Shown in pieces: positions 34,192 to 62,380 of a stretch of 64,000 nt of DNA. The stretch lies in sequence record NC_048818.1; one strand, written 5' to 3'. Below the pieces are notes generated by a model. The model searched no databases. It was given only the letters and a program-made list of their open reading frames with translations, and was not told where the DNA came from. Origin of the DNA: Escherichia phage VEc33. Numbering within the stretch: position 1 is the stretch's first letter; every line of letters starts with the position of its first letter. The translations under genes were made by a program, and so were the position numbers.

Positions 34192-34200
34192 ATAATTTAT

Positions 34201-35514: not shown

Positions 35515-35516
35515 TT

Positions 35517-35591: not shown

Positions 35592-35597
35592 AAATTT

Positions 35598-35674: not shown

Positions 35675-35682
35675 GCAGAAAT

Positions 35683-35759: not shown

Positions 35760-35766
35760 TTAAATT

Positions 35767-35857: not shown

Positions 35858-35985
35858 ATATTTAAAAGTATTCAAATACTAGTTTAAACACTTTTAAATA
35901 TGTTTCCGAATTAGATAACTATTATATCAAGTTTTAAGGCACTGAGCAAGTCAAATTTTAAAGAACTTGCTCAGTGCTGTATTAG

Positions 35986-36261: not shown

Positions 36262-36351
36262 TAATTAACTCCTCCATCAATTTATATAATTATTATATCA
36301 GAAATTTAAGGCAAAAGGCAAGTACATTTTTAAAAATTCTGTTTGGAGGAG

Positions 36352-36558
36352 CTAAACTCCAGATTCTTCAGCTAAGTCTAGGCTAATAAGAGTTATAGCC
36401 ATAATTGCTGCACCGTGTTCTTTTTCTCCGGTGTTTTTAGCAGAGTCTATAATAGTCTTAATCTGTTCGTAATAGCCCTTTACTTCTTGTTCAATACCTG
36501 CCTCGGCTATCATGCCTTTAGTCATGATTCGTTGCATAGTAATTTCACGGTTAGCCAT
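36352..36558 (-). CDS. hypothetical small protein (68 aa)
   Basis: ORF. Confidence 0.35.
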   Translation of the reverse strand: MANREITMQRIMTKGMIAEAGIEQEVKGYYEQIKTIIDSAKNTGEKEHGAAIMAITLISLDLAEESGV

Positions 36559-36733
36559 GATGTTTCTCCAATTTCATCTTTAATAGTCTACAAATAAAAT
36601 CAATGTCTTCATCCGTGCCTAGATCTCTATCTTCAAGAGTTGCCTTGAAGTTTTTAGTCAATTCCATGAGGATAACTTCTCTAGAACGACGTGTTGGCGG
36701 AGGTGGATGTCTATACATCTTATTTCCTTAATT

Positions 36734-36810
36734 TGGTAGGGGTGGTGGGATTCGAACCCACAAAACCTGAATTTTAAGTCCAGTACCTATGCCAATTCGA
36801 TTACACCCCC
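36734..36810 (-). tRNA. tRNA with anticodon TAA (Leu-type anticodon on a class-I body)
   Basis: T-arm GTGGG-TTCGAAT-CCCAC; anticodon stem CTGGA/TTCAG, loop CTTAAAA; discriminator A; 5-nt variable loop. Confidence 0.5.
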
Positions 36811-36817
36811 GTGTAGT

Positions 36818-37006
36818 TTAGTCAATTACTTTTGAGGCTTCAAGGTAGTCGATATAGTGTATGTTTTCTACCGTAATCATATAATCTGCCACTTTATCCA
36901 TAGCTTGGGCTTCAGAGGTAGCTCTGGCTAACCTATATCCTTTTTTATATTCATCCTGGTATTCTCTATCTTGGATAAACACAACATAAACTATATATAG
37001 ATCCAT
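36818..37006 (-). CDS. hypothetical small protein (62 aa)
   Basis: ORF. Confidence 0.35.
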   Translation of the reverse strand: MDLYIVYVVFIQDREYQDEYKKGYRLARATSEAQAMDKVADYMITVENIHYIDYLEASKVID

Positions 37007-37025
37007 TTGTTACCTCTATTTAATT

Positions 37026-37103
37026 TGGTGGCTCCCCGAGGATTCGAACCTACGTACCTTCCGGTTATGAGCCGGGTGCTCATACCATATGAGCTTGAGA
37101 ACC
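37026..37103 (-). tRNA. tRNA-Met/fMet (anticodon CAT)
   Basis: Anticodon loop CTCATAA with a G-C-rich stem; third CAT tRNA in the cluster. Confidence 0.45.
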
Positions 37104-37109
37104 AAAATC

Positions 37110-37198
37110 TGGCGGAAGAAGTGGGAATCGAATCCACAAGGCTATATTTCAAACCGACAGATTAGCAATCTGCTGCAATACCGTTATGCTATTCTTCC
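37110..37198 (-). tRNA. tRNA-Ser (anticodon GCT), class II
   Basis: 89 nt; acceptor GGAAGAA/TTCTTCC; anticodon stem GCAGA/TCTGT, loop TTGCTAA; discriminator G. Confidence 0.55.
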
Positions 37199-37219
37199 GA
37201 ATTTATAAGATATATTATA

Positions 37220-37738
37220 TTAGAAATTTAGCTTCATAGCAAGAAAATTTTTCAAGTTTTCGGTAGACATCTCATCTACGTCTACAGGAGAAACAAAGCC
37301 GTTTAATTTTCTAGCAAATTTTTCACCCGCAGGATCATTATCCCCGACAGCTACCAATTTAAAAGGTAATAATTTCAGTTGCTTTAATAACGCTTTTCCT
37401 GGAGAAGAACCCAACATTGCTAGGGCTGGATAACCAGCGTTATGTAACGCAACTGCCTTAAATACAGATTCAGCGATCAATACTACTTTTTCATCTCCAT
37501 TGAGAGTTTCTAGTCCCCATACACACTGGGTAGTAGAATAAGTAAAGTATTTAGCTTCAAAAGGGCACTTACCATGACCTTTTGGAGCAGAAGGATTATA
37601 AGTTTGGTAGCCCCTCAACATCCCAGAGAAATCATATAACGGGACTGTTAGCCATCCTTCCGGACTTAACCAGCAATGATATTTTTCTGTATCAAATCCT
37701 CTAGATAAGAGGTGCTGTGTTAGCTCATCAACATTCAT
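37220..37738 (-). CDS. Toprim-domain-like protein (172 aa)
   Basis: VVLIAESVFKAV ... LVAVGDNDPAGEKFA resembles the Toprim E...DxD signature. Confidence 0.45.
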   Translation of the reverse strand: MNVDELTQHLLSRGFDTEKYHCWLSPEGWLTVPLYDFSGMLRGYQTYNPSAPKGHGKCPFEAKYFTYSTTQCVWGLETLNGDEKVVLIAESVFKAVALHNAGYPALAMLGSSPGKALLKQLKLLPFKLVAVGDNDPAGEKFARKLNGFVSPVDVDEMSTENLKNFLAMKLNF

Positions 37739-37915
37739 ACCTGGTTCCTCTCTCTCAAATTTATAGATATATTATACAGAGAATTTAGCATTCAAGCAAT
37801 CAAATTTTTTAACTTTTTAGAGGAAAATCATAGGGCACTTAAGGGTAGCAGATAAGTGGTGAGGACCAAAATTTGTGACCCCACTAAAAATCCGGGGGCA
37901 ATTTTTAAAGACCCC

Positions 37916-37944
37916 TTGACATTTTCGCTGGGGTAGTGTAAAGT
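37916..37944 (+). promoter_or_regulatory. sigma70-type promoter (TTGACA-N17-TAAAGT) for the rightward three-gene module
   Basis: Consensus -35 TTGACA at 37916-37921. Confidence 0.5.
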
Positions 37945-38006
37945 ATATGTTATGGATGAGTGATCAAAGAGACACACATTTTCTATATACTAGGAGGTGT
38001 CAAAAA

Positions 38007-38978
38007 ATGACAGAAGAAGTAGCTAAGAGTCCTGAAACCGTCGCTAGCGTAGCAGCAGAACTGCATCGTCACGAGGAATCAGATAAGAAAAAGTGGGAGA
38101 AGGTCAGAGCCTACGAAGAAAAACATCGTGTTCACGATGAAGAAGATGATGATGAACATTGTCATAAATATGGAAAACATAAAATGCAAGAACCAGTAAA
38201 CGTATTCACTAGTGGCTTCCCTGGCCTACTGGGTGGTTACCCAGCAAACGCAAGTGCTTTCGGTGGTGAAGGTATGGGACTATTCGGAGCTATCCTAATC
38301 GGTGCTCTATTAACAGGCGGATTTGGTGGTTTTGGTGGTTTTGGCCGTGGTGCTGGCGTTGCCGCTGAAGGGACTGCTGTGGACGCGATCCTTTCTAACC
38401 AAGATACTGCAAGTATTCTAGCTGCAATCAATACTACTCGTACAGAAGCTAACCAGGGCACTGGGGCTGTTCTAAGCGCAGTAAACGGTGTGGGAGCTGC
38501 TCAAGCTGCTAGCACTCAGCAAGTTCTGACTACTATCTACGGTACAGGTGCTAATCTGTCAAACCAGATCTGTGCTGAAACTCGTAACGTTATTCAGGGT
38601 CAGTTCGATCTTTCTCGTCAGATGGATCAATCTTTCGCTGCTAACCAGATCGCACGTGCTCAAGATAAATTTGACTCTGCTCAGATTGCTTTCCAGCAGT
38701 CTATTCAGACCAATAACCAGTTTGCCGCTGTTCAGGCTCAGATGTGTGCTAACCAGAATGCTATCGAACGTCAGCTTGCCGAATGTTGCTGTGAGCTTCA
38801 GACTGCAATCGCTGGTGTAACTACTGCACGTATCCAGGACGAACTGAATGAATGCCGTCTGCGTGAAGCAATCGCTGCAGGTAGCGGTGCTAACGGTCAG
38901 GTAATTAATCAAATCGCTGTAAGTCTTGGTGCTATCACTCAGACTCTGGCTGGTCTGCAGGCTAAACTGCCGGCTTAA
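38007..38978 (+). CDS. Gly-zipper membrane protein with acidic His-rich N-terminus and Ala/Gln-rich C-terminal domain (about 323 aa from the RBS-supported ATG)
   Basis: AGGAGG RBS before ATG 38007; hydrophobic GLFGAILIGALLTGGFGGFGGFG segment; CCCE and other Cys near the C-terminus; no recognisable enzymatic motif. Confidence 0.55.
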   Translation: MTEEVAKSPETVASVAAELHRHEESDKKKWEKVRAYEEKHRVHDEEDDDEHCHKYGKHKMQEPVNVFTSGFPGLLGGYPANASAFGGEGMGLFGAILIGALLTGGFGGFGGFGRGAGVAAEGTAVDAILSNQDTASILAAINTTRTEANQGTGAVLSAVNGVGAAQAASTQQVLTTIYGTGANLSNQICAETRNVIQGQFDLSRQMDQSFAANQIARAQDKFDSAQIAFQQSIQTNNQFAAVQAQMCANQNAIERQLAECCCELQTAIAGVTTARIQDELNECRLREAIAAGSGANGQVINQIAVSLGAITQTLAGLQAKLPA

Positions 38979-38999
38979 TATTAAGGGGAGGAGCCCATT

Positions 39000-39416
39000 A
39001 TGAGTAAATATGGTTTTGTAAATAACGGACTTAATCAAAGTATGGGCTCCCAGCAGCCCGTTCCGGGACTGGATAACCCTTACCTACAACAGTTGCAACA
39101 GCGTTTAGCAGAAGCGCAACAGATGCAGCAACAACTCCAGCAAAACCCTGGAAGTGTGAGTCCTATGCAAATGATGCAGCAAATGAGCGGGCAGTCGCAA
39201 ATGCCTCAACAAATGCAGCAACAGGTGCCTCAGCAGCAAGTTCAGCAGCAAACCCAACAACCGCAGGTTTCTGCGGAAGGACAGGCAGTACTAGCCCTTT
39301 TCGAAGACTTCGCAAAGACAGAGGATGGGAAGCAGCTTGTATCACTTATGGGTAAGTTTAATAGCTTCTGCCAAAGCCAAGTTGCAAAAGCTCAAAATGG
39401 TGGTAATAACTCCTAA
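39000..39416 (+). CDS. Gln-rich low-complexity protein (138 aa)
   Basis: GGAGGAG RBS; poly-Q/M stretches. Confidence 0.5.
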   Translation: MSKYGFVNNGLNQSMGSQQPVPGLDNPYLQQLQQRLAEAQQMQQQLQQNPGSVSPMQMMQQMSGQSQMPQQMQQQVPQQQVQQQTQQPQVSAEGQAVLALFEDFAKTEDGKQLVSLMGKFNSFCQSQVAKAQNGGNNS

Positions 39417-39425
39417 GGAGGAATT

Positions 39426-39620
39426 ATGTGTTGCAGAAAATCTGTTTCGTGCTGCCCAATGCCTGTAGCACGTTGTTGCTCTCCAGCAATGTTTACGCAA
39501 ATACCGGCGTTCAATCCGTTTGCCTTTAAGCCTACTCTTATCCTGCCCCCTAGAGTAGATTTTCAGTCAAGATTGGCCTCCCGTATGGGTGGTTGCTGTA
39601 ACAAGAGTATATGGTTCTAA
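39426..39620 (+). CDS. Cys-rich small protein with four CC doublets (64 aa)
   Basis: AGGAGG RBS; MCC..SCC..RCC..GCC pattern. Confidence 0.45.
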   Translation: MCCRKSVSCCPMPVARCCSPAMFTQIPAFNPFAFKPTLILPPRVDFQSRLASRMGGCCNKSIWF

Positions 39621-39633
39621 AGAACCAAACAAT

Positions 39634-39668
39634 AAAGCCCCTAGTCGAAAGACTTAGGGGCTTTTTCT
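39634..39668 (+). terminator. Rho-independent terminator, one of two back-to-back hairpins
   Basis: AAAGCCCCTAGTCGAAAGACTTAGGGGCTTTTTC. Confidence 0.6.
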
Positions 39669-39684
39669 TTTGCCTTAAATACAG

Positions 39685-39721
39685 AAAAGCCCGCGCTCTC
39701 GGAGGAAACGCGGGCTTGGTT
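39685..39721 (-). terminator. Rho-independent terminator for the convergent leftward gene
   Basis: AAAAGCCCGCGCTCTCGGAGGAAACGCGGGCTTGGTT hairpin. Confidence 0.5.
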
Positions 39722-39740
39722 CGAAGATTACGTGTAACTA

Positions 39741-40688
39741 TTACTTGTTACGCATATCCATGATCATTTGACCATCGTAACCAGTACCTACTACAGTCTG
39801 AGGCACACCACCTTGATATTTCTGAGCACGAATCATATCAACTTCCAGTTGTTTCCAACGAATCATCTCAGGAGTAATGGTACGTTGCAGTGCGGCGTTA
39901 GCTTCAGCTTCTTTCTTAGCTGCGTACAGTTTAGCATCTGCGTCACGTTCATTAGCGATAGCTTGGTTGTTGCGAGCTTCACGATCTGCTTCTGCTTGTT
40001 TAACTTTTTGCTGTGCTTCCTGTTCAACACGAGCTAATTCAGCTTTAGCAGCATTAGCCTGTTCTTCACGAACTTTGGTATTCTGTACCTGTTCCATGAT
40101 TACCGGTGGCAAAGTAATATCCTGAAGGAATACCTGCTTAACTGTGTAACCATATGGGCGTGCGTACTCTTCAACTTCCTGTTGAATTGCAGTTTGCAAT
40201 TGAGCCTGAATTTTAGCATCAAACAAATCTTGTGCTTTAGGTACAGACTTACCAAACTCACGAATAGTAGACAGTAATTTTTCAGTTACATATTTGTCTA
40301 ACGCTTGATCCTGAGTACCTGCATTAATACGGTTAATCGGTGCCTTAGAACCATCAAACTGCAACATAACAGTCAGATCAACAGTGGATTTAAACTTATC
40401 CTGACTAGGAACCTGAAGTTTATCTAATTTTACAGCAATATCTTTAGTACTAAAAGTATCGAAAGAAGCAAAAGGATTTACAATATGAAAGCCGGGTAAT
40501 ACTGGATTAGGGTCTACTTTACCCAGGAATGTTTGAGTTTTAACCGTACCATCAGAAACAATAGTATATGAATTAAAAGCTAGAATTAAACCTGCTAAAC
40601 CAACTACAGCACCAATCCCCCAACGTTTAATAGTACGAATTACTTTCTGCTCAGAAGTTAGTTCTTTCATATTTTTAGTATTAAACAT
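39741..40688 (-). CDS. SPFH/band-7 (prohibitin/HflC-like) membrane protein (315 aa)
   Basis: N-terminal TM helix, SPFH-like core, Ala/Glu/Gln-rich coiled coil. Confidence 0.6.
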   Translation of the reverse strand: MFNTKNMKELTSEQKVIRTIKRWGIGAVVGLAGLILAFNSYTIVSDGTVKTQTFLGKVDPNPVLPGFHIVNPFASFDTFSTKDIAVKLDKLQVPSQDKFKSTVDLTVMLQFDGSKAPINRINAGTQDQALDKYVTEKLLSTIREFGKSVPKAQDLFDAKIQAQLQTAIQQEVEEYARPYGYTVKQVFLQDITLPPVIMEQVQNTKVREEQANAAKAELARVEQEAQQKVKQAEADREARNNQAIANERDADAKLYAAKKEAEANAALQRTITPEMIRWKQLEVDMIRAQKYQGGVPQTVVGTGYDGQMIMDMRNK

Positions 40689-40722
40689 ATATTTCCTTTG
40701 TTTTAGTTACAGTTAATAAAAT

Positions 40723-40797
40723 TGGCCGAGGTGACAGGATTCGAACCTGCATAAAGGAATTTAGAAGACTCCTGCCTATCCCTTAGACTACACCCCG
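40723..40797 (-). tRNA. tRNA-Arg (anticodon TCT)
   Basis: T-arm GCAGG-TTCGAAT-CCTGT; anticodon stem GGAGT/ATTCC, loop CTTCTAA. Confidence 0.55.
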
Positions 40798-53999: not shown

Positions 54000-55874
54000 A
54001 TGAATCGCAATGATGAACTAAAATACAAGGAAATGCAGTCCTTGATTAGAAACTGCAAAGAAATTATTGAGGGTTCTGCTGATGAAGAGCTTCTCTTTAA
54101 TAATGCGAATAAACCCTCTGAGCGTTTCCCTACACAAAGGGATATGCTCGCAGGGGAATTGAGTAAATATCTGATTCTAGAAGAAATGCCAGTTCAGATT
54201 CGAAATGCTCATATGATTGGAGATATTCATTTCCATGATGCTGATTACGCTGCTTTAGGCATGACTAACTGTTGCCTAGTAGCCCTGGAAGATATGTTGA
54301 AAAATGGTATGAAAGTTGGTAATGCTGAAATTAGCACTCCAAACTCTATCACTACTGCGGCTGCTATTACAGCTCAGATTATCACACAGGTTAGCTCCCA
54401 TCAGTATGGGGGTACTTCTGTAGACCGATTAGATGAAGTATTGGCTCCTTATGTTCGTAAGTCTTATGATAAGAATCATGCGTTTGCAAAACGTTGGACT
54501 AAGGATGAAGCCAAAGCATCAGTAATGGCTACGGAGATGACTGAAAAAGAAGTCTATGATGCTTGTCAGGGTCTAGAGTATGAAATCAATACGATGTTCA
54601 ACTCTAATGGTCAGAGTCCATTTATTACCTTTGGTTTTGGTCTAGGAACTTCTTGGGAAGCACGTCTAGTACAGAAAGCAATACTGAAAGTACGTATGGA
54701 TGGCTTAGGTATCAATAAACGTACAGCTATCTTTCCGAAACTGGTGTTTGTTCTGCGTGATGGCGTAAATATGAAGCCAGGGGATGTTAATTATGACATC
54801 AAGAAGTTAGCTATGAAATGTACTGCTGAACGTATGTATCCAGACTATATCAGCTATGATAAGGTTGTGGAAGTTACTGGTGACTATAAAGTTTCTATGG
54901 GCTGCCGTTCATTCCTAGCTGCTGCAGAAGATGGTGAAACTGCCGGTCGTAATAACTTAGGTGTTGTTTCTGTAAACTTGCCTAGAATTGCTATCGAAGC
55001 TGAAGGGAATATTGATCTATTCTTTGATTTGCTTGAGCTACGTGTTGATACAGCGTTAAAAGCGTTGGAGTGGAGAGTTGATCGCTTAAAATACATTCAA
55101 GCTAAAGCCGCGCCCATCCTCTATATGTCAGGAGCCTTTGGGTTACGCTTAGGGCCTGATGAATATGTATTCGATCATTTCTATAACCGTGCTTCTGTAT
55201 CTCTGGGGTATATTGGTTGCCATGAAATGCTACAGTTCATGTTTGGCAAAGATGTAGACACAATGTCCGAGACTTGCATCAAGTTTGTTCAGCGTGTATT
55301 GCAGTACATGCGAGATAGAGTCGATCAGAAGAAGGAAGAGACTAAGTTAGGTTATAGCCTGTATGCTACACCGTCAGAGTCCCTATGCGATCGGTTTTGT
55401 CGTCTAGACCGTGAATATTTCCCGGAGCATGAAGATATTCTGTCTAAAGGATACTACACTAACTCGCACCACCTTGATGTAGAACGCAAAGTTGCTCCCA
55501 ATGTGAAATTTGATTATGAATCTAATTTTACTCCGATTGCTTCTGGTGGGTGCATTTCCTATGTAGAACTACCAGATATGAAACGATTCCCAGATGCACT
55601 GGAATGGGTTATTAATTATGCTGCTAGTAAAGTTCATTACTTCGGTATTAATACTCCAGTGGATTCTTGTAGTAAATGTGGATTCTTAGGTGAAACAATA
55701 GCATCTGAAGATGGATTTAAGTGCCCTATCTGTGGTAATCATGACCCCGAAACTCTTGAAGTAACTCGTCGAGTTTGTGGGTATCTTGGAAATCCGGGTG
55801 CTCGTCCATTTAACCCCGGCAAACAGCACGAGGTGATGGGCAGAGTGAAACATCAGGATATTCGAGCTAAATAA
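54000..55874 (+). CDS. nrdD: anaerobic ribonucleoside-triphosphate reductase (class III) (624 aa)
   Basis: C-terminal CxxC Zn site and glycyl-radical motif RRVCGYLG. Confidence 0.8.
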   Translation: MNRNDELKYKEMQSLIRNCKEIIEGSADEELLFNNANKPSERFPTQRDMLAGELSKYLILEEMPVQIRNAHMIGDIHFHDADYAALGMTNCCLVALEDMLKNGMKVGNAEISTPNSITTAAAITAQIITQVSSHQYGGTSVDRLDEVLAPYVRKSYDKNHAFAKRWTKDEAKASVMATEMTEKEVYDACQGLEYEINTMFNSNGQSPFITFGFGLGTSWEARLVQKAILKVRMDGLGINKRTAIFPKLVFVLRDGVNMKPGDVNYDIKKLAMKCTAERMYPDYISYDKVVEVTGDYKVSMGCRSFLAAAEDGETAGRNNLGVVSVNLPRIAIEAEGNIDLFFDLLELRVDTALKALEWRVDRLKYIQAKAAPILYMSGAFGLRLGPDEYVFDHFYNRASVSLGYIGCHEMLQFMFGKDVDTMSETCIKFVQRVLQYMRDRVDQKKEETKLGYSLYATPSESLCDRFCRLDREYFPEHEDILSKGYYTNSHHLDVERKVAPNVKFDYESNFTPIASGGCISYVELPDMKRFPDALEWVINYAASKVHYFGINTPVDSCSKCGFLGETIASEDGFKCPICGNHDPETLEVTRRVCGYLGNPGARPFNPGKQHEVMGRVKHQDIRAK

Positions 55875-55916
55875 GCTAATCAGCCGGGTTGCTAGTCGAC
55901 CTGGCTTTTATTTTAT

Positions 55917-55945
55917 TTGCTTTCAGCCAAAAATTTATATATAAT
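55917..55945 (+). promoter_or_regulatory. sigma70-type early promoter (TTGCTT-N17-TATAAT), paralogous to the 62606 promoter
   Basis: TTTATTTGCTTTCAGCC...TATAATAGATTTATAAATTTGAGAGGAG leader. Confidence 0.6.
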
Positions 55946-55973
55946 AGATTTATAAATTTGAGAGGAGAAAGCT

Positions 55974-56264
55974 ATGAGCGAGTTGCTTCCTAAAGTAGAT
56001 GTCTCCCATCTTGGGGAGCCTAGTGAAGAACGTAAGGCTCTAGATTGGTTGGGTGGATTTGATTATCGTCGTGTTGTTGCAACATGGAATGATAAGAATG
56101 ATAAGAAAGTTAAGAAGTTTCGGGTACATTATGTAGGTAAAGACAAGTGGCTCTGGATTGATTATGAAGAATCAAAGGGGTCTACTAAGGCTGTGAAAAT
56201 TTATTGTATGTATGGGTATTATTATGCTCACTGTGATAAGAATGAATTTACAGTACAGAACTAA
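55974..56264 (+). CDS. hypothetical protein (96 aa)
   Basis: ORF with RBS. Confidence 0.5.
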   Translation: MSELLPKVDVSHLGEPSEERKALDWLGGFDYRRVVATWNDKNDKKVKKFRVHYVGKDKWLWIDYEESKGSTKAVKIYCMYGYYYAHCDKNEFTVQN

Positions 56265-56273
56265 GGAACAAGA

Positions 56274-56477
56274 ATGAAAAACGTAAAACATCTTAAATAT
56301 CGCTTAATTTACAACGGACGTATGGAAACAGAAGATCTGGCCCAATTAGCTATTACTTCTAATGAGGTTACGGTGCGTGCTCTGGCAATTGAAAAGTTGC
56401 GTGCCTCTTATGAAAATCGTGTTATGGAACTGGAGGAGAAACTTTATGGACTTCTTGAATCAGAATCTAAAAAGTAA
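56274..56477 (+). CDS. hypothetical protein (67 aa)
   Basis: ORF. Confidence 0.4.
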   Translation: MKNVKHLKYRLIYNGRMETEDLAQLAITSNEVTVRALAIEKLRASYENRVMELEEKLYGLLESESKK

Positions 56478-56640
56478 TCCAGAAAACATGCTTATTGAGC
56501 AATGGAACTTTGGTTATAATGCTGGTGTAGCTACTTGTATTGCTAGATTGGATACGCTTATTAAGCAAGAAAAGGTACGCCCTGAGGAAGCAATTTTACT
56601 CCGAAATATTATCGAAGGATTTAAGCAAGGAATCGTATAG
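56446..56640 (+). CDS. hypothetical protein (about 64 aa from the internal Met)
   Basis: GGAGGAG RBS before ATG 56446. Confidence 0.4.
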   Translation: MDFLNQNLKSNPENMLIEQWNFGYNAGVATCIARLDTLIKQEKVRPEEAILLRNIIEGFKQGIV

Positions 56641-57476
56641 TGCGTAGATTAATTATTATTAGCGGTGCAGGTTTGAGTGTTGAAAGTGGTGTACGAGCTT
56701 TTCGTACTGATACTGCTAGTGGTAAAGCATTGTGGGATGATTATGATCTAGAAGAAGTATGTAATATTCATGCCTTTCGTGGTAATTTTTATCATAAAAC
56801 CCATATGTTTTACAACAAACGTCGTGAAGAGCTAAAAACTGTTGAACCCAATCTTGCACATTTGCGTATTGGTGAATGGTATAAACAATATCCAGGTCAA
56901 GTAGTAAACTTGACTACCAACGTTGATGACCTTATTGAGCGTGCTGGCGTTCCACATAGTGACATTCTGCACATTCACGGATATTTAAAAGAGGTTGTTG
57001 TAGCTGATAGCTACAATAGTAGCAATAAACGGATTATTGATGTAGGGTATAATTCTATTGATCCAGATGATTATAAATGGGTTAAACCTAATGTAATCTT
57101 CTTTGGAGAACATGCTCCTGCATACGCAGAAATGTATAATGTTTTTGATGGTATTACCAGTCAAGATATGATCATTGTGGTTGGTTGCTCTAATCAAGTA
57201 ATTAACTTCTACTGGGAATTATTTCCTGTTCTTAATTTGACTGCTGCCAAACTAATGGTAGTTAACTACTATGATAGTGCCATAGCAGCAGAGCCAGGCT
57301 ATCAAGGTATGACTCGTAGTGAGATGTACCAACTGGAAGATCGTGGTATTCCTTACTGGAGTAATGGTGCGGTAGATGCTTTTAGTGACCCTGATTTTAT
57401 TGCTCGTGTGGAAGCCCATTTAGAGGGTAGACCTTATGTGCCGGAGAGAAGGGGAAACAGATATGTCCATAGTTAA
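56640..57476 (+). CDS. Sir2-family (sirtuin-like) NAD-dependent protein (278 aa, GTG start)
   Basis: GAGLSVESGVRAFR N-terminal nucleotide-binding motif typical of sirtuins. Confidence 0.6.
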   Translation: MRRLIIISGAGLSVESGVRAFRTDTASGKALWDDYDLEEVCNIHAFRGNFYHKTHMFYNKRREELKTVEPNLAHLRIGEWYKQYPGQVVNLTTNVDDLIERAGVPHSDILHIHGYLKEVVVADSYNSSNKRIIDVGYNSIDPDDYKWVKPNVIFFGEHAPAYAEMYNVFDGITSQDMIIVVGCSNQVINFYWELFPVLNLTAAKLMVVNYYDSAIAAEPGYQGMTRSEMYQLEDRGIPYWSNGAVDAFSDPDFIARVEAHLEGRPYVPERRGNRYVHS

Positions 57477-57645
57477 ATCTGTTTATACACATCCCGATGA
57501 TATATTTGTATGGGCGGACGGTAGTTGGTGCTATCGCTGTGAGCTATGGGAAATGGACTATAAATCCGATGATTATGGTGTCATATATGTTGATACGGTT
57601 GAGTATGATACGTTCTTAGAAAGGGACAAAAATGGAAATAAGTAA
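57463..57645 (+). CDS. hypothetical small protein (60 aa)
   Basis: Internal Met with RBS; overlaps neighbours. Confidence 0.35.
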   Translation: MSIVKSVYTHPDDIFVWADGSWCYRCELWEMDYKSDDYGVIYVDTVEYDTFLERDKNGNK

Positions 57646-58138
57646 TACTCCAATTATTTTTCTAGATATTGATGGGGTGCTCAACTCGAGCATCTCCCAT
57701 CACCATGCACCTGATGATGAAAAGATTTTCTTTGGAAGTGACTGGGTTTTTAAACCGCTTCTCAAGGCTTTTCAGGATTTTATTCGTCCTTCTCCAATAA
57801 TGATTGTTGGGGTATCTTCATGGTTCTCTGTCAGGAATGAGATGGAGAACGTTCAGATTATGACCGGATTAGATCTTATCGATCGTTTTCTTGGTACAAC
57901 GGATTTTACTGGTGGTGGATTATCTAGGGGTAATTCTGTTCTTCGCTTCGTTGAAAAGCATAAGCTCAAACATTGGTGTGTGCTGGATGATGCTGGTGCT
58001 ATGATGTATCAGTATCCAACGGTTATAGTCAATGGTAGAACTGGAATAAATCTTCAAGATTTAAGAGCTGTTAGCTATATGTTAGAATTTAGTCCAGATC
58101 TTGAAATGTGTAAAGCCCTGCAACAATTTAAGGTGTAA
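57632..58138 (+). CDS. HAD-like hydrolase (168 aa)
   Basis: N-terminal FLDIDGVLN (DxDGxL) motif and downstream VLDDAG. Confidence 0.5.
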   Translation: MEISNTPIIFLDIDGVLNSSISHHHAPDDEKIFFGSDWVFKPLLKAFQDFIRPSPIMIVGVSSWFSVRNEMENVQIMTGLDLIDRFLGTTDFTGGGLSRGNSVLRFVEKHKLKHWCVLDDAGAMMYQYPTVIVNGRTGINLQDLRAVSYMLEFSPDLEMCKALQQFKV

Positions 58139-58140
58139 AT

Positions 58141-58569
58141 ATGTTCAATAATGTATTCTCTAAAGAGGCTAACCCGATATTGGTTAATTTTTGGCGTACT
58201 CTTCCAGCCAACCTGTACAATGAGGCTATTAATGCTTTGAAAATATGGTGTGAGAATAATGAAATCTCCTTTGCTTTTAAAGGTGAGATTGAAGAGGCTC
58301 CCTGTATTGGTTTAATTGTGCAGGTGGAGGATGGTCTTGAAGAGATTGTCGGCTGGAAAGAGTTGGATGAAATGGGCTTGGTTTTTGCGTTAAACTATAA
58401 GCTGTTTATGCCCAATAAACACCGTATTGTTGTTAACTATAAAACCAATGAATCTCCTGGTTTTCAAGTTAATGAACGGTATGGTTGGTCTTACTCACCA
58501 GAAGAAGTAAATGATGGTATCCAAAAACTTCGTCGTTTTGGTTATCAAATTCCGGGTTTAACCGCCTAA
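58141..58569 (+). CDS. hypothetical protein, paralog A (142 aa)
   Basis: Shares PCIG(L/V), MGL(V/I)(F/V)ALN(Y/F)(K/S)LF and G(Y/I)(Q/Y)(I/V)PGL blocks with the next gene. Confidence 0.5.
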   Translation: MFNNVFSKEANPILVNFWRTLPANLYNEAINALKIWCENNEISFAFKGEIEEAPCIGLIVQVEDGLEEIVGWKELDEMGLVFALNYKLFMPNKHRIVVNYKTNESPGFQVNERYGWSYSPEEVNDGIQKLRRFGYQIPGLTA

Positions 58570-58578
58570 GGGGGCACA

Positions 58579-58971
58579 ATGGAACAAGTATATTGGCGTC
58601 AGATCGACCCTAGTTTGGTGAAGCGTGCAGAGAAGCTGCTACAACGTTGGTTGGGGGTAAGACAAGCCTCCTTCACTTTTCCGGAGCAGCAAATAGACGA
58701 TCCCTGTATTGGTGTTTTCCTATCAGGCTACGCTAGGGAATGGGAATTGGATTGGAATGAGTTGTCTGCTATGGGTTTAATTGTTGCCCTAAATTTCTCT
58801 TTGTTCCATACACGTGGTTTGGCTATATGTCGTGTGCCTGATGACGGTTGTTCGCCCCATCTTTTACAGGTGGAAGATGATATTTGGGAGTACACTCCAG
58901 ATATTCTCAAAGAAGCTAAAGAACAATTAAATCGTGCTGGGATTTATGTTCCAGGCCTGAACGATGAATGA
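58579..58971 (+). CDS. hypothetical protein, paralog B (130 aa)
   Basis: Tandem paralog of 58141..58569. Confidence 0.5.
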   Translation: MEQVYWRQIDPSLVKRAEKLLQRWLGVRQASFTFPEQQIDDPCIGVFLSGYAREWELDWNELSAMGLIVALNFSLFHTRGLAICRVPDDGCSPHLLQVEDDIWEYTPDILKEAKEQLNRAGIYVPGLNDE

Positions 58972-59063
58972 GTTTTATTAGCTGAACTCTGATTACCGAG
59001 CCATTTTGACTCGGTTTTCTCTATGTTCAAAGACACTGGTAGCAGCTCCTGGAAAAATCTACT

Positions 59064-59091
59064 TGCAGGATGCCCAAAATCTTGATATAAT
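59064..59091 (+). promoter_or_regulatory. sigma70 promoter with extended -10 (TTGCAG-N16-TGATATAAT)
   Basis: Hexamers with TG extension; followed by an about 500-nt ORF-poor leader. Confidence 0.5.
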
Positions 59092-59590
59092 ATTTATATT
59101 GAATTGAGAGACATTAGTAAAAATTGATTTTGCTAATTTTTCTTGTTTACAATCCGCGATACGGAACAGTTAGGCTGCCCCATTAAGGGTTGTTTTAACT
59201 GTTACGTGTTAGTTTTTAAACAAATAGTTAATAGAATACTTAGCGATCTGCGTCCCGTAGGAACCCTGGTAAGGCCTCGAAGCAACCTAGATAGAGGTGG
59301 TTGTGAAGTGAGACGGGAGGAGTGAAAAACTCCGAGACGTGATTCTGTAAGTTATATTGCATCTAGTATGAGCTAGTATATGAAGCATTAGGTGAGCAAA
59401 TCTGGCTTAGCGGCCATCCTCAAGGATTTGTGCGGTATAGCAAAGCAGCAGCGCAGCGTGAAAGTGGAAGTTGCCACCCCACTTCAGTATTTGCGATTAA
59501 TTTGTTGAGAAATTGACAGTAACAGTTGTTCTATTCTTTCTGAATAGTCCTAAAGAAAACTTATTTCATTTCCAACACAGGAGTATTGTT

Positions 59591-62380
59591 GTGTTTTCAA
59601 TCCTACAAGGTCATGCAGGATTTCATCGCGATTTAGCCACAGGCAATTGGCGAGAAGTTAAAGCAGAAGATTATCTTTTTGCTAAAAGATTTTCCTCAAA
59701 GCATCCTGAAGGTAAACCAGCTTCAATGCCCTTCAAGTTTGATGTAATTGACGAAGTTGATCCTCAAACCCTAGTAGAAATGCTTCCCATTATGAGACGT
59801 TTAACGTCTGACCCTCATATCGTTGCGGTACGAGGTCGATGTCTTGCACCTAAAAATAATGTGCGGCGTAAGAAGGGCAACTTTAATGTATCTAACCCAA
59901 GTCATATAATCGCAATGGATGTGGATGGTATTGTAGATACAGGTGGTTGTAACAAGTTTGATCTTGTTGGCATGGCTCGACATATTATTAGAATGTTAAA
60001 TAGTATTAGTGAGGATATGTTCCCTCTTGATGCAGGGTTTATCGCTCATGCATCATCTTCGGCTGGGCTAAAACCAGGTATCCGAATGCACTTAATACTA
60101 GAATCTAATGTTAAAGTAACTCAGGGTCAAATCAAATTCTTATTTACATCTATCAACGAAAGTAGTAGACAAAAGTATGGCTTTGATATTGCCGACCTAG
60201 CTTATTACTCTTCCGTACAGCTTCATTATTTTGCAGATCCGTTATTTATCGATGGTATAGTAGATCCGTTTAAAGCGGAGGGTGCTTCACGTCTGGTATT
60301 TGTTAAGGGTTCTAAAGTAAATTTACCCAATAATCTGGTTGACTATGAAACAACTAGAGGAGAGTTTAAAGAGGAGTTCTACTCCTTACTCGATCAAATT
60401 AAAGGTAAAAAGGCTGCCTCTGATAAAGTAGAAGAAACCATCAGCGAGTTAGAAGAAGCCGAGGATGGAGTGTATCTACGTATTATTCCTAAACTCTATC
60501 ACAGAGCTTTAGAGGATGGTGTTGATTTTGCATGGCTAGAAAAAGAAATCCGCCCAGCCTTATCAGAATATATTGCAACTAAAGATAATAGTCGTAATAT
60601 TCAAGACTACTTTAATAACGGTCGTAAACAGGCTCTGAAAGCGTTTGTTAATAATTCTAAACGCGATATACCTGATGTTTTAAAAGGTATTCCACTTAAA
60701 AAGCTAGAAACTAATTCTCTAGAAACTGATAACTTCTTGAAATTAAACACTGTACCACCAGAAGGTTATATGACTTTTGTAAAAGCAAGTCTAGGTACAG
60801 GTAAAACCACGGCAGTTGTGCGTTGGTTAGATTCAGGGGTTATTAAAGGTAATTTCTTAGCAATTACCAATACTAGAGCACTGGTATCTTCAAATGCTAA
60901 GAAATTTAGTGCAGGACAGTATGATAAGTCTGTAGATATGCTTAATTTTAAGCGTGGTGCTATTGACCGTATGTCCACAACTATTCACTCTTTGCATAAA
61001 TTCAAGAGTTTTATTGGTCAAATTGACGCAATCTTTATCGATGAATGTGATGCAGTAATGAATGACCTATTATTCGCCCCGGTTGTTAAGCAACGTCGAG
61101 AGTGTATTCAGGTTCTTCGGGATATTCTTGCAACTGCAAAAATCATTATATTATCTGATGGGGATATTAGTGCAGAAACAATTGAAGCATATGGTTCTTT
61201 GATTGAGTTTGATAAACCGGTTGCATTTTATAATCATCACCGTAAAATGCTATCAAAAGCTCATGCTTATGAGTTTCCTGATGAATCCAGTATTTGGGTT
61301 GCACTTCAGACTTCCCTGGAGATGGGTGAGAAATCTATCCTAGTATCTGACTGTGGGCCAGATGAACTGAATGAGAAGGGCATGGCGTTGCGTCGTAATA
61401 CGGGTGCGTTAGTTAAGGAAATCCATTCAAATTCTACGTCTGATGTGGATATTAGACGTATCCTGGATTACACAACTAATGAGTTAATTGACCAACAAAT
61501 TGATTGCTTATTATGTAGTCCATCCGTAACGAGTGGTGTTGACTTCAACTATTTTGATAACGTATTCGTTATTACTAGAACCTCAAACCAAGCGCCAAAC
61601 ATGCGTTTCCAAGCAATCAGGCGCGACCGTGGTGCTCAGAATATCTATTATTTTATTGATAAATCCACTAGTGGATTCTCCGCAGGTTCTGAACAATATA
61701 ATATTGATGAAGGTTGGCTGGAGTTAGCACAGCAATTATATGCACGTCGCAGAGAGCTGGAATCTAGGAACTATACTAGTACTTTACGTTATTACTTGCT
61801 TGATCAGGGTGCAACTATTGATATTTTCAGCGAAAGCTGGGGAACTATTGAAGGTGCTGGTAAAGAGTACACAGAAGAGCGAATCAAAGCTATACTGTAT
61901 TCAACTCCTGATTATTGTGCTCCACGCCATGCAGATGCGTATGAAGCTAAACTACTTCTTGTTCGCTATTATCATCTTGAGTCTATTAAAGATGTAACAG
62001 TTGAGCATGTTGAACAATATATCAAGGATAAACCTAATGATCGAGCGGCATTCTTCCATAAAATGCACGAGATGTTTTGGGAAGATATTAAGAAGTGTTC
62101 AAATGTCACTATCAAACCATTCATAGAAGCTCTGAAAGGTAAGAAGAAAGATTTCTTCCTTAAAACAGGTCAGAGTGCTAACCCAAAATATGCGAGAATG
62201 TATCTTGGTATGATGGGTATTGGTAAGGATATGAACACTGAAAATATTGTAGACTGGTACAGAACCTATTGTAAAATCGAGTGTATGCCAATCCCGTATA
62301 AGTTTATGACTGATGAGGAGAAACATATGCATGATGAAGCAATGGCAGAGCTAGGTGCTAGAAATGACAGTGAAGAATAA
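59591..62380 (+). CDS. P-loop NTPase/helicase-like replication protein (about 930 aa from the RBS-supported GTG; the six-frame ORF begins at 59513)
   Basis: Walker A ASLGTGKTT and Walker B IFIDECD; AGGAG RBS 8 nt before GTG 59591. Confidence 0.6.
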   Translation: MFSILQGHAGFHRDLATGNWREVKAEDYLFAKRFSSKHPEGKPASMPFKFDVIDEVDPQTLVEMLPIMRRLTSDPHIVAVRGRCLAPKNNVRRKKGNFNVSNPSHIIAMDVDGIVDTGGCNKFDLVGMARHIIRMLNSISEDMFPLDAGFIAHASSSAGLKPGIRMHLILESNVKVTQGQIKFLFTSINESSRQKYGFDIADLAYYSSVQLHYFADPLFIDGIVDPFKAEGASRLVFVKGSKVNLPNNLVDYETTRGEFKEEFYSLLDQIKGKKAASDKVEETISELEEAEDGVYLRIIPKLYHRALEDGVDFAWLEKEIRPALSEYIATKDNSRNIQDYFNNGRKQALKAFVNNSKRDIPDVLKGIPLKKLETNSLETDNFLKLNTVPPEGYMTFVKASLGTGKTTAVVRWLDSGVIKGNFLAITNTRALVSSNAKKFSAGQYDKSVDMLNFKRGAIDRMSTTIHSLHKFKSFIGQIDAIFIDECDAVMNDLLFAPVVKQRRECIQVLRDILATAKIIILSDGDISAETIEAYGSLIEFDKPVAFYNHHRKMLSKAHAYEFPDESSIWVALQTSLEMGEKSILVSDCGPDELNEKGMALRRNTGALVKEIHSNSTSDVDIRRILDYTTNELIDQQIDCLLCSPSVTSGVDFNYFDNVFVITRTSNQAPNMRFQAIRRDRGAQNIYYFIDKSTSGFSAGSEQYNIDEGWLELAQQLYARRRELESRNYTSTLRYYLLDQGATIDIFSESWGTIEGAGKEYTEERIKAILYSTPDYCAPRHADAYEAKLLLVRYYHLESIKDVTVEHVEQYIKDKPNDRAAFFHKMHEMFWEDIKKCSNVTIKPFIEALKGKKKDFFLKTGQSANPKYARMYLGMMGIGKDMNTENIVDWYRTYCKIECMPIPYKFMTDEEKHMHDEAMAELGARNDSEE

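What the first reader, a model, noticed from the sequence alone, without database searches (positions are those of the whole stretch)
56640..58971. Sir2-like protein clustered with a HAD-like hydrolase and a tandem pair of paralogous unknown proteins
A sirtuin-type NAD-binding protein is followed by a DxDGxL HAD-like hydrolase and two adjacent genes that are clear paralogs of each other (conserved PCIG, MGLxxALN..LF and xPGL blocks). Sir2 domains are NAD-consuming effectors in several bacterial defence systems, so a phage-encoded Sir2 next to a phosphohydrolase could be a NAD/ADP-ribose-directed host-takeover or counter-defence module. That role is inferred from context only.
Basis: partly seen in the sequence, partly recalled or inferred. 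Interest (0 to 1): 0.6.

Follow-up and report, generated by a model that had tools for sequence, protein, structure and literature searches.

The report
T5 sirtuin–HAD phosphatase early operon
This is the known early operon of T5-like phages that pairs a zinc-less, phage-specific sirtuin with an "RNA-repair type" HAD phosphatase and two acidic proteins of unknown function; the pairing was described computationally in 2022 as a probable NAD-dependent RNA-repair module, and its function is still untested.

Summary
At 56640-58971 there are four tightly packed + strand genes. They are a Sir2 protein (Pfam SIR2, 8e-25), a HAD phosphatase (Pfam HAD_SAK_2, 2e-20) and two paralogous DUF7415 proteins (31% identity, E 5e-18).

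The window is a T5-like phage, and the genes form one early transcription unit (55917-59022).

The Sir2 belongs to a phage-only clade. It keeps every NAD-binding and catalytic residue and the class III YxxR motif, has lost the zinc-binding cysteines, and matches no defence-type Sir2 model.

Across Demerecviridae, Sir2 is constant in this slot. The HAD and DUF7415 genes come and go independently. In other phages the same Sir2 clade sits beside an RNA ligase, a kinase, cREC and a phosphoesterase, or beside RlaP and Thg1.

Iyer et al. 2022 already described the Sir2-HAD neighbourhood and proposed a KptA-like role in RNA 2'-phosphate removal. I adopt that reading at moderate confidence; a CobB-like protein deacylase is the main rival.

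A published CRISPRi-ART screen found Sir2 and the HAD dispensable in T5, and called only the second DUF7415 gene (T5.107) "Fit", marginally.

The NADase or NAD-depletion counter-defence reading has no support. Verdict: real, already known, mechanism untested.

The parts
55917..55945 (+). Early sigma-70-type promoter (TTGCTT, 17-nt spacer, TATAAT) of the operon. It sits just after the nrdD terminator hairpin at 55882-55906.
   Evidence: Read directly from the sequence. The terminator comes from the scan. It corresponds to 'putative early promoter T5P31' in the T5 record AY587007.
55974..56264 (+). orf96, first gene of the operon, function unknown (phrog_7953).
   Evidence: It is 99% identical in an Epseptimavirus-like locus and has a 37%-identical relative in L012.
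56274..56477 (+). orf67, function unknown (phrog_5236).
56446..56640 (+). orf64, function unknown (phrog_5827). Its stop overlaps the Sir2 start.
   Evidence: The start was chosen as in the JLBYU40 annotation.
56640..57476 (+). Phage-clade sirtuin, 278 aa, GTG start. It is derived from class III (CobB/SIRT5-like) sirtuins and has no zinc-binding cysteines. It is the orthologue of T5.102 / T5 'cobB'.
   Evidence: Pfam SIR2 8e-25. Best PDB match is E. coli CobB 1s5p at 1.8e-17. In 120 homologues GAGxS, FR, Y58xxR61, T93-N-V-D96 and H113-G are invariant and there are no conserved Zn cysteines. No PADLOC hit.
57463..57645 (+). orf60, an acidic 60-aa protein (phrog_5116, WxxGxWCYR...DDY). It follows Sir2 directly in three of the six slot arrangements compared (T5-like, Sugarland-like, L013). 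It is duplicated in T5 itself (T5.103 and T5.104).
   Evidence: It diverges together with Sir2 (39% identity against 90-99% in the flanks).
57632..58138 (+). HAD-superfamily phosphatase of the HAD_SAK_2 ('Swiss Army Knife RNA repair') family, 168 aa. It is the orthologue of T5.105.
   Evidence: Pfam PF18143 1.8e-20, covering 138 of 139 profile positions. Motifs I (D12xD14), II (S62), III (R99) and IV (D119-D120) are invariant in 8 homologues of 21-90% identity.
58141..58569 (+). DUF7415 paralogue a, 142 aa, acidic (pI 4.8). It is the orthologue of T5.106.
   Evidence: Pfam PF24187 3e-32 with two matched stretches. Orthologous to the Sugarland 'a' copy. pI.
58579..58971 (+). DUF7415 paralogue b, 130 aa, acidic (pI 4.6). 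It is the orthologue of T5.107, the only gene of the operon called 'Fit' in the T5 CRISPRi-ART screen.
58995..59022 (+). Terminator-like hairpin (ACCGAG, 9-nt loop, CTCGGT) followed by TTTTCTCT. It ends the operon. The next promoter (TTGCAG, 17-nt spacer, TATAAT) is at 59063-59091.
   Evidence: Read from the sequence. The scanner missed it because its loop limit is 8 nt. The T5 record annotates a terminator at the same relative position.

Best explanation
The locus is the early, non-essential accessory operon of T5-like phages, built around a phage-specific sirtuin.

Shown:
- One promoter-to-terminator unit encodes three small ORFs, the sirtuin, a co-diverging 60-aa protein, a HAD_SAK_2 phosphatase and two acidic DUF7415 proteins.
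- The sirtuin keeps the full NAD+-binding and catalytic apparatus and the anion-binding YxxR motif of class III sirtuins. It has lost the zinc module and is not a defence-type NADase.
- The same sirtuin clade repeatedly sits next to RNA-end-processing enzymes in unrelated phages.

Inferred (following Iyer et al. 2022):
- The sirtuin uses NAD+ to ADP-ribosylate and thereby remove a 2'-phosphate left on cleaved or re-ligated RNA, probably tRNA. This is the same two-step chemistry as KptA/Tpt1. It is formally parallel to sirtuin deacylation: a nucleophile attacks NAD+ C1', then the His-activated ribose 2'-OH resolves the adduct.
- The HAD phosphatase either removes terminal 2'/3'-phosphates from the broken RNA or dephosphorylates the ADP-ribose-phosphate by-product.
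- T5-like phages have no RNA ligase or polynucleotide kinase of their own, so sealing would fall to the host (RtcB).
- On this reading the module protects the translation apparatus, including the phage's own 23 tRNAs, against host ribonuclease-based immunity.
- The DUF7415 pair and orf60 are not enzymes by any test here. They are most likely protein-binding accessories or inhibitors, with no demonstrated link to the Sir2/HAD chemistry.
For: - Identity of the parts.
- One transcription unit.
- Catalytic completeness: the Sir2 clade has invariant GAGxS, FR, YxxR, N94, D96 and H113 in 120 homologues. The HAD has invariant motifs I-IV.
- Not a defence Sir2: no PADLOC hit.
- The HAD stays within one gene of Sir2 although the order is rearranged. 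It lies upstream of Sir2 in Erwinia phage KEY, L012 and L013 (38-41% identical HADs), downstream in T5-like phages and L043, and 3 kb away in L064.
- Independent RNA-repair contexts for the same Sir2 clade: Metallophos-Rnl1-cREC-AAA_33 kinase-Sir2 in about 15 Mydovirus/Vequintavirus-type loci, and RlaP plus Thg1 beside Sir2 in a 279-kb jumbo contig.
- Rnl1-kinase-Metallophos cassettes that lack Sir2 also lack cREC in the two cases examined. cREC is the predicted cyclic phosphodiesterase that would create a 2'-phosphate.
- Sir2 and the HAD are dispensable in a laboratory host (CRISPRi-ART, PMC11879866 supplements), as expected for a conditional repair or counter-defence function.
- Sir2 plus orf60 form a hyper-divergent island (61% and 39% identity) inside 90-99% identical flanks, typical of genes under conflict-driven selection.
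- The same proposal is published: PMC9503650, section 3.7.3.
Against: - No biochemical test exists for any member of this sirtuin clade (literature searches).
- T5-like phages lack an Rnl1-type RNA ligase and the kinase, cREC and Metallophos partners, so the pathway is incomplete here.
- The T4-type heal-and-seal pathway (Rnl1 plus kinase plus phosphoesterase) does not generate a 2'-phosphate, so a KptA analogue is not obviously needed. This rests on established knowledge of T4 Pnkp/Rnl1.
- The best sequence matches are genuine protein deacylases. The YxxR motif is the signature of desuccinylases and demalonylases.
- In the Mydovirus-type loci the cassette also neighbours NAD-salvage genes (NAPRTase, PRPP synthase, NADAR). 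The context may therefore reflect NAD metabolism rather than RNA.
- About 10 of 54 Sir2 loci (phi92-like, jumbo) show no recognisable partner.
- The HAD also occurs without Sir2 in T4-like Aeromonas and Proteus phages, next to td/nrdA.1.
- The RNA-directed role of HAD_SAK_2 is itself only a prediction.
Confidence: 0.4

Rival explanations
1. The sirtuin is what its closest relatives are: a CobB/SIRT5-like NAD+-dependent protein lysine deacylase (deacetylase or desuccinylase). It would reset acylation of host or phage proteins during early infection, for example activating acetyl-CoA synthetase or nucleotide-metabolism enzymes. The HAD and DUF7415 genes would be unrelated neighbours.
For: - Best PDB and NCBIfam matches are CobB-type deacylases.
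- The catalytic His and the class III YxxR motif are invariant.
- FFGE and the V-I-N segment occupy the acyl-lysine tunnel positions.
- The operon lies in the nucleotide-metabolism block (nrdA/B, nrdD, thy, frd, phoH).
- This role was proposed for the Vibrio phage homologues, with T5 named (PMC5107563).
Against: - The zinc module that shapes the peptide-binding cleft of canonical sirtuins is lost in the whole clade (also noted in PMC5107563).
- The Gln of TQNID is replaced by Thr in all 120 members.
- Scores are far below the CobB equivalog cut-offs (90 against 320 bits).
- This reading does not explain the recurrent linkage to RNA ligase/kinase/cREC, to RlaP/Thg1 and to the SAK-type HAD.
- The host already has CobB.
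Confidence: 0.3
2. One reading: the Sir2 is an NAD+-consuming effector (an NADase, or an ADP-ribosyltransferase acting on protein or DNA). Together with the phosphohydrolase it would form an NAD/ADP-ribose-directed host-takeover module or a counter-measure to NAD-depleting defence systems.
For: - The protein certainly binds and cleaves NAD+ (conserved motifs).
- It is an early gene.
- It is dispensable in a defence-poor laboratory host.
- It evolves fast.
- In Mydovirus-type phages it lies near NAD-salvage genes and NADAR. In a jumbo contig it lies beside DUF4326 and a SLOG-like protein.
Against: - There is no similarity to any defence-type Sir2 model (PADLOC).
- Consuming NAD+ would harm a phage that depends on an NAD+-dependent DNA ligase (annotated in T5).
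- Neither gene resembles the known NAD-reconstitution enzymes (Pfam).
- No macro domain or other ADP-ribose-removing partner is present in the T5-type operon.
Confidence: 0.1
3. There is no functional module. The slot between nrdD/phoH and the origin-binding protein gene is a hyperplastic region where unrelated accessory genes accumulate. The four genes would be neighbours only by descent within Markadamsvirinae.
For: - The HAD and DUF7415 are gained and lost independently of Sir2 and of each other across the six slot arrangements compared in Demerecviridae-like phages.
- Both also occur in T4-like phages without Sir2.
- Divergence is very uneven along the operon.
- Homing HNH genes insert nearby.
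- Only DUF7415b shows a fitness signal.
Against: - HADs only 38-46% identical to the T5 one remain within one gene of Sir2 in four further lineages, on either side of Sir2. That is hard to explain by descent alone.
- The genes are translationally coupled, with overlapping stops and starts, in a single operon.
Confidence: 0.2

Closest known systems
Phage sirtuin-HAD 'type 3' RNA-repair neighbourhood of Iyer, Burroughs, Anantharaman & Aravind 2022 (Viruses 14:1977, PMC9503650), prototype Escherichia phage SP15
   Same: [quoted passage not shown] The SP15 DUF7415 protein was among my hits (P0027). The two sister neighbourhood types they describe were reproduced here.
   Different: As far as I read that paper, it does not mention the DUF7415 pair, the orf60 partner, the facultative nature of the HAD within Demerecviridae, or the Sir2/orf60 divergence island. 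Its functional proposal is computational only.
E. coli CobB / human SIRT5 (class III sirtuin protein deacylases; PDB 1s5p, 6rxj, 3rig)
   Same: Rossmann NAD-binding core with GAGxS and FR, the catalytic His in an HG motif, the N and D of TQNID, FGE, and the class III YxxR motif. This is the best sequence match (E 1.8e-17).
   Different: All four zinc-binding cysteines are absent. The Gln of TQNID is Thr. The VYP substrate-staple segment is V-I-N-F. The score is far below the CobB equivalog cut-offs. The clade is found only on phage-sized contigs.
KptA/Tpt1 RNA 2'-phosphotransferase
   Same: [quoted passage not shown] The genomic logic (linkage to RNA ligase, kinase and cyclic phosphodiesterase) is also comparable.
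   Different: It has an unrelated fold and there is no sequence relationship (only Pfam SIR2 is found). The activity of the phage sirtuin is untested. T5-like phages lack the ligase that would create the 2'-phosphate junction.
T4 polynucleotide kinase-phosphatase (Pnkp) / Rnl1 tRNA repair pathway
   Same: A HAD-superfamily DxD phosphatase encoded by a virulent coliphage. In sister phages the Sir2 clade sits with an Rnl1-type ligase and an AAA_33 kinase.
   Different: The T5-type HAD is a stand-alone 168-aa protein of a different HAD family (HAD_SAK_2). It has no detectable PDB relative by sequence or profile. No kinase or ligase is encoded nearby or, as far as tested, elsewhere in T5-like genomes.
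Defence-associated Sir2 NADases (ThsA, DSR1/DSR2, SIR2-HerA, pAgo-associated Sir2)
   Same: They belong to the Sir2 superfamily and use NAD+ as a substrate.
   Different: No PADLOC model matches. The phage protein is a small single-domain protein of the canonical PF02146 type, with no sensor or partner domains.

Membership tests
Sirtuin superfamily (Pfam SIR2, PF02146) | Profile score above the curated cut-off | tested here: met
   88.2 bits against a cut-off of 24, covering profile positions 1-178 of 180.
Sirtuin superfamily (Pfam SIR2, PF02146) | NAD+-binding GAGxS...FR loop, the Asn/Asp of the TQNID motif, and the catalytic His of the HG motif | tested here: met
   G9-A-G-x-S13, F21-R22, N94, D96 and H113-G114 are invariant in 120 clade members. 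The Gln is replaced by Thr93 in all of them.
Canonical sirtuin deacylases | Zn-binding module with four cysteines (CxxC...CxxC) between the HG and FGE motifs | tested here: not met
   There is no conserved Cys between residues 115 and 147. One Cys at position 148 occurs in 51 of 120 members only. The alignment to CobB shows the cysteines missing.
Class III sirtuins (CobB/SIRT5) | YxxR motif that binds the acidic acyl group | tested here: met
   Y58 and R61 are invariant in 120 of 120 members and align with the CobB 'FYNARR' segment.
Class III sirtuins (CobB/SIRT5) | Equivalog-level similarity to CobB (NCBIfam cut-off) | tested here: not met
   NF040867 gives 90.1 bits against a cut-off of 320. 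NF001753 gives 99.9 against 243.
Class III sirtuins (CobB/SIRT5) | NAD+-dependent lysine deacylase activity | not testable with these tools
   No biochemical data were found for any phage-clade member.
Defence-type Sir2 NADases (ThsA, DSR, SIR2-HerA, pAgo-Sir2) | Match to a defence-system Sir2 profile | tested here: not met
   No PADLOC family at E <= 0.01 for the Sir2 or any neighbouring protein.
KptA/Tpt1 RNA 2'-phosphotransferase | Homology to the KptA/Tpt1 fold | tested here: not met
   The Pfam scan at E <= 1 returns SIR2 only. Any relation is functional analogy, not membership.
KptA/Tpt1 RNA 2'-phosphotransferase | NAD+-dependent removal of an RNA 2'-phosphate | not testable with these tools
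   Inferred from gene context only (PMC9503650).
HAD_SAK_2 (PF18143) HAD phosphatases | Profile score above cut-off and intact HAD motifs I-IV | tested here: met
   74.2 bits against a cut-off of 27.5. D12xD14, S62, R99 and D119-D120 are invariant in 8 homologues down to 21% identity.
HAD_SAK_2 (PF18143) HAD phosphatases | Phosphatase activity on RNA termini | not testable with these tools
   The family's role is itself a prediction. There is no solved relative by sequence or profile. The single-sequence AF2 model was unusable (pLDDT 45.9).
DUF7415 (PF24187) | Profile score above cut-off | tested here: met
   110.9 and 107.2 bits against a cut-off of 27, with two matched stretches per protein. 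The Sugarland copies and the 77-aa single-domain forms also match.
Phage sirtuin-HAD neighbourhood (Iyer et al. 2022, type 3) | A phage-clade sirtuin adjacent to a SAK-type HAD phosphatase in a conserved neighbourhood | tested here: met
   Sir2 and the HAD are separated by one 60-aa gene here. The same pair is present in about 30 T5-like IMG/VR loci and, rearranged, in KEY, L012, L013 and L043.

The most novel reading that the evidence does not exclude
The zinc-less phage sirtuin clade could be the first sirtuin that acts on nucleic acid. It would be an NAD+-dependent RNA 2'-phosphate (or terminal phosphate) remover. In T5-like phages it would work with a stand-alone HAD phosphatase and the host ligase as a minimal, ligase-free tRNA/mRNA healing system against ribonuclease-based immunity. 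The fast-evolving Sir2-orf60 pair and the acidic DUF7415 proteins (one with a fitness effect in T5) would be further, so far unrecognised, conflict components of the same operon.
Probability: 0.25. Interest if true: 0.75.

Novelty: already known. Interest (0 to 1): 0.35.

Why it matters
If the RNA-repair reading is right, it would extend sirtuin chemistry from acyl-lysine to RNA phosphate. It would also add a second, non-homologous solution to the KptA/Tpt1 reaction. And it would show that T5-like phages back up their large tRNA set with an enzymatic repair route against host anticodon nucleases.

The question is directly testable, because T5 is a model phage and the proteins are small. As it stands, the locus is a well-conserved and already described gene neighbourhood. 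Its enzymes are dispensable under laboratory conditions. The only part with a measured fitness effect (the T5.107 orthologue, DUF7415b) has no assignable function or fold.

Tried and rejected
- **DUF7415 homologues.** Two large-database searches found only phage proteins and no fusion to any other domain.
- **Internal repeat in DUF7415.** Pfam matches each protein twice. The model shows a beta-alpha-beta-beta pattern twice. My own hhalign of the N-terminal half against the C-terminal half did not confirm the repeat (probability 4%). It therefore stays probable only.
- **HAD structure.** There was no PDB hit by sequence or by an 8-sequence profile. Single-sequence AF2 gave pLDDT 45.9. I discarded the model and did not run a fold search on it.
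- **Defence Sir2 reading.** Rejected after the empty PADLOC scan.
- **NrdD-accessory idea for DUF7415.** A single-domain form overlaps the nrdD stop in Klebsiella T4-like phages. I dropped the idea because Slocum-like phages have DUF7415 without nrdD, and in Aeh1 it lies next to rnlA.
- **Displacement test.** I checked whether KptA replaces Sir2 in Rnl1 cassettes that lack Sir2. No KptA was annotated in the two cassettes examined, and both also lack cREC. This is only weakly informative.
- **Rfam.** The scan of 55000-60500 found nothing.
- **Literature.** No experiment on any phage-clade sirtuin turned up. The Burroughs & Aravind 2016 paper that defines the SAK HAD domain is not in the library.
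Full report
**Origin of the window.** The window comes from a T5-like phage (Tequintavirus). Region 55900-59500 is 96.7% identical to Escherichia phage JLBYU40 and matches 527 phage records, mostly Salmonella, Escherichia and Klebsiella T5-like phages. The flanks are the standard T5 early region. PhoH and the aerobic RNR genes lie on the minus strand. NrdD (54000-55874) lies upstream on the plus strand, and the origin-binding protein gene lies downstream.

**The observation.**
- Sir2: 56640-57476. Pfam SIR2, 8e-25.
- HAD: 57632-58138. Pfam HAD_SAK_2, 'HAD domain in Swiss Army Knife RNA repair proteins', 1.8e-20, covering 138 of 139 profile positions.
- DUF7415a: 58141-58569. Pfam DUF7415, 3e-32.
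- DUF7415b: 58579-58971. Pfam DUF7415, 5e-31 (all).

The two DUF7415 proteins are paralogues (31% identity, E 5e-18). The duplication predates the split of T5-like and Sugarland-like phages, because each copy has its own orthologue in Sugarland.

All of these genes form one transcription unit:
- the nrdD terminator hairpin at 55882-55906;
- a TTGCTT-17-TATAAT promoter at 55917-55945;
- overlapping or closely abutting genes;
- a hairpin plus T-tract at 58995-59022;
- the next promoter at 59063-91.

The T5 record AY587007 annotates the same early promoter (P31) and terminators.

**The sirtuin.** Its best solved relative is E. coli CobB (1s5p, E 1.8e-17), followed by Sir2Af and SIRT5. The best NCBIfam models are CobB-type deacylases, but scores are far below their cut-offs.

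A large-database search returned 173 relatives. The 120 listed all carry a single SIR2 domain, are 214-299 aa long, and, where the longest contig is large, sit on contigs of roughly 90-153 kb.

In an alignment of those 120:
- G9-A-G-x-S13, F21-R22, N94, D96, H113-G114, F154-F155, E157, G182, S184 and N209 are invariant or nearly so.
- The class III signature Y58-x-x-R61 is invariant.
- The Gln of 'TQNID' is Thr in all members.
- There are no conserved cysteines where the Zn ribbon should be.

Skliros et al. 2016 (PMC5107563) had already noted the loss of the zinc ligands for the Vibrio phage homologues. No PADLOC defence model matches the protein.

So the protein is a catalytically complete, NAD+-cleaving sirtuin. 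It derives from class III sirtuins and belongs to a phage-specific clade. It is neither a canonical CobB nor a defence-type NADase.

**The HAD.** Motifs I (D12xD14), II (S62), III (R99) and IV (D119-D120) are invariant in eight homologues down to 21% identity. I found no solved relative by sequence or profile. A single-sequence AF2 model failed (pLDDT 45.9) and was not used. The assignment therefore rests on the Pfam family, whose RNA-repair role is itself a computational prediction.

**The DUF7415 proteins.**
- They are acidic (pI 4.2-4.8).
- They are restricted to phages, and no fusion to another domain was found.
- Pfam matches each of them twice. Single-domain forms of 77 aa occur in T4-like phages, next to nrdD in Klebsiella phages and next to rnlA in Aeh1.
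- The AF2 model of paralogue b is very confident (pLDDT 94.3, pTM 0.88).
- My hhalign test of the internal repeat was negative.

No function can be derived for them.

**Co-occurrence.** I compared the syntenic slot in six divergent Demerecviridae-like lineages. I also scanned 54 IMG/VR loci carrying a clade Sir2 with home-made HMMs.

| Lineage | Gene order in the slot |
|---|---|
| T5-like (about 30 loci) | NrdD, small orfs, Sir2, orf60 (0-2 copies), HAD, DUF7415, DUF7415, Obp |
| Sugarland-like | Sir2, orf60, two DUF7415 copies; no HAD |
| Slocum-like and L059 | Sir2, one DUF7415; no HAD |
| Erwinia phage KEY, L012, L013 | HAD, one small ORF, Sir2; no DUF7415 |
| L043 | Sir2, HAD, one DUF7415 |

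Sir2 is the constant element. The HAD and DUF7415 are facultative and independent of each other. The HAD nevertheless stays within one gene of Sir2 on either side, even at 38-46% identity. That argues for a real Sir2-HAD coupling.

Outside the family, about 15 loci (Mydovirus, Vequintavirus and relatives) carry Metallophos, an Rnl1-type RNA ligase, cREC, an AAA_33 kinase, Sir2, an ATP-dependent ligase, MazG and NADAR. In a 279-kb jumbo contig Sir2 is flanked by DUF4326 and a SLOG-like protein, and by RlaP plus Thg1. About 10 loci (phi92-like and others) show no recognisable partner.

**Prior art.** This is the picture published by Iyer, Burroughs, Anantharaman and Aravind in 2022 (PMC9503650, section 3.7.3). 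They describe a distinct phage sirtuin clade in three neighbourhood types. [quoted passage not shown] They propose that the sirtuin acts like KptA and removes RNA 2'-phosphates.

My searches found no experimental follow-up.

The T5 genome paper's annotation (AY587007) already called the gene cobB. It had also noted the Aeh1 relatives of the HAD and of DUF7415b.

**Experimental data.** The CRISPRi-ART screen of T5 (Adler et al. 2025, PMC11879866, supplementary files 1, 8 and 16) gives:

| T5 gene | Product | Call | Fitness | p |
|---|---|---|---|---|
| T5.102 | Sir2 | Not Fit | -4.08 | 0.72 |
| T5.103 / T5.104 | two orf60 copies | Not Fit | -3.68 / -3.48 | 0.40 / 0.48 |
| T5.105 | HAD | Not Fit | -3.91 | 0.81 |
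| T5.106 | DUF7415a | Not Fit | -3.28 | 0.17 |
| T5.107 | DUF7415b | Fit | -2.90 | 0.0215 |

T5.107 is one of 17 Fit genes and is described as being of entirely unknown function. The signal is marginal. The screen also scored the origin-binding protein gene as Not Fit, so its sensitivity is limited. The enzymes are nonetheless clearly not essential in a laboratory host. That fits a conditional role.

**Additional observations.** I did not find these in the papers I read.
- Against an Epseptimavirus-like locus the flanking genes are 90-99% identical at the protein level. Sir2 is 61% identical, orf60 39%, the HAD 90% and the DUF7415 genes 72-73%.
- DNA identity falls from about 90% to 46-51% over 57200-57600.
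- The T5-type Sir2 is as close to myovirus Sir2s (60-62%) as to that of its sister genus.
- Sir2 and orf60 therefore behave as a fast-evolving or exchanged cassette, and orf60 is the most faithful partner of Sir2 in this family.
- T5-like phages lack an Rnl1-type ligase.
- Rnl1-kinase-Metallophos cassettes without Sir2 also lack cREC in the two cases examined. Both sit next to NAD-salvage genes.

**Weighing the explanations.** The RNA-repair reading has three supports. The same Sir2 clade is linked to RNA-end enzymes in three unrelated contexts. The HAD belongs to an RNA-repair-associated family. And sirtuin chemistry is formally equivalent to Tpt1 chemistry, so retention of His113 and of an anion-binding YxxR pocket is expected under that reading too.

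Four points weaken it. The T5 pathway is incomplete: it has no ligase, kinase or cyclic phosphodiesterase. The T4-type repair route produces no 2'-phosphate. NAD-salvage genes confound the context in the Mydovirus-type loci. And there is no biochemistry.

The deacylase rival rests on the closest homologues and on the YxxR motif. It does not explain the contexts or the lost zinc module. The NADase or NAD-counter-defence reading has no specific support.

My confidences are:
- RNA-directed reading: 0.4
- Protein deacylase: 0.3
- Unlinked neighbours: 0.2
- NADase or ADP-ribosylating takeover: 0.1

**Verdict.** The finding is real and correctly located. It is a conserved gene neighbourhood that has already been annotated and discussed in the literature, so its novelty is low. 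Some interest remains because the mechanism is untested and easy to test in T5. The DUF7415 pair, one copy of which has a reported fitness effect, and the co-diverging orf60 also remain unexplained.

Noticed in passing
window 56800-57650 compared with L048 and L051: Sir2 (61% aa identity) and the following orf60 (39%) form a hyper-divergent island between a Tequintavirus and an Epseptimavirus-like phage. The flanking genes are 90-99% identical. DNA identity drops to 46-51% at 57200-57600. The T5-type Sir2 is as close to myovirus Sir2s as to its sister genus, which suggests allele exchange or an arms race.
   Followed up: partly
window 58972-59512: A 541-nt non-coding gap lies between the operon and the origin-binding protein gene. 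It contains two promoter-like sites. Its first ~285 nt are ~86% conserved in Epseptimavirus, more conserved than the neighbouring DUF7415 genes. A segment at 59155-59345 folds better than shuffles (z = -2.5). There is no Rfam match. JLBYU40 carries an HNH homing endonuclease gene inserted here. It could be a regulatory, origin-related or small-RNA region.
   Followed up: partly
window 28924-40797 (minus strand): A cluster of 23 tRNA genes. It includes one with a CUA anticodon (35598-35674, called 'tRNA-Pyl' by ARAGORN), which is a potential amber suppressor.
   Followed up: no
window 57632-58971 and public records: Annotation errors are propagating. phrog_18062, labelled 'Sir2', is really the C-terminal part of the HAD, so many GenBank records list two 'Sir2' genes. 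The DUF7415 genes are labelled 'exonuclease' and 'tail tube protein' in several records, and no search here supports either label.
   Followed up: yes
window 54000-55874 and 28281-28649: The phage encodes an anaerobic ribonucleotide reductase NrdD, but no NrdG activase is visible next to it. A 122-aa ORF at 28281-28649 has the same length as the T5 'glycine radical' (GrcA-like spare-part) protein annotated in AY587007 and lies at a similar position beside the tRNA cluster. I did not verify the equivalence.
   Followed up: no
L002 3980-4213; L003 4958-5191 (minus strand): Single-domain 77-aa DUF7415 proteins occur in T4-like phages. In Klebsiella phage Phi_KR1 the gene overlaps the stop of nrdD. 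In Aeromonas phage Aeh1 it lies directly downstream of rnlA (RNA ligase 1), 1.8 kb from the Aeh1 HAD_SAK_2 homologue.
   Followed up: partly
L009/L010 1-1133 and 12023-12529; L069 6322-9148; L070 8328-10924: In Mydovirus, Pakpunavirus and Thalassavirus the Rnl1-kinase-phosphoesterase RNA-repair cassette lies next to NAD-salvage genes (Nampt/NAPRTase plus PRPP synthase) and sometimes NADAR. This holds whether or not a Sir2 is present.
   Followed up: partly
T5 genes T5.103 and T5.104 (PMC11879866 supplement); L017, L019, L025, L029: The orf60 family gene is present once in this window. It is tandemly duplicated in T5 itself and in several IMG/VR T5-like loci, and absent in others (L018, L023, L024, L027). 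Its copy number therefore varies among close relatives.
   Followed up: partly
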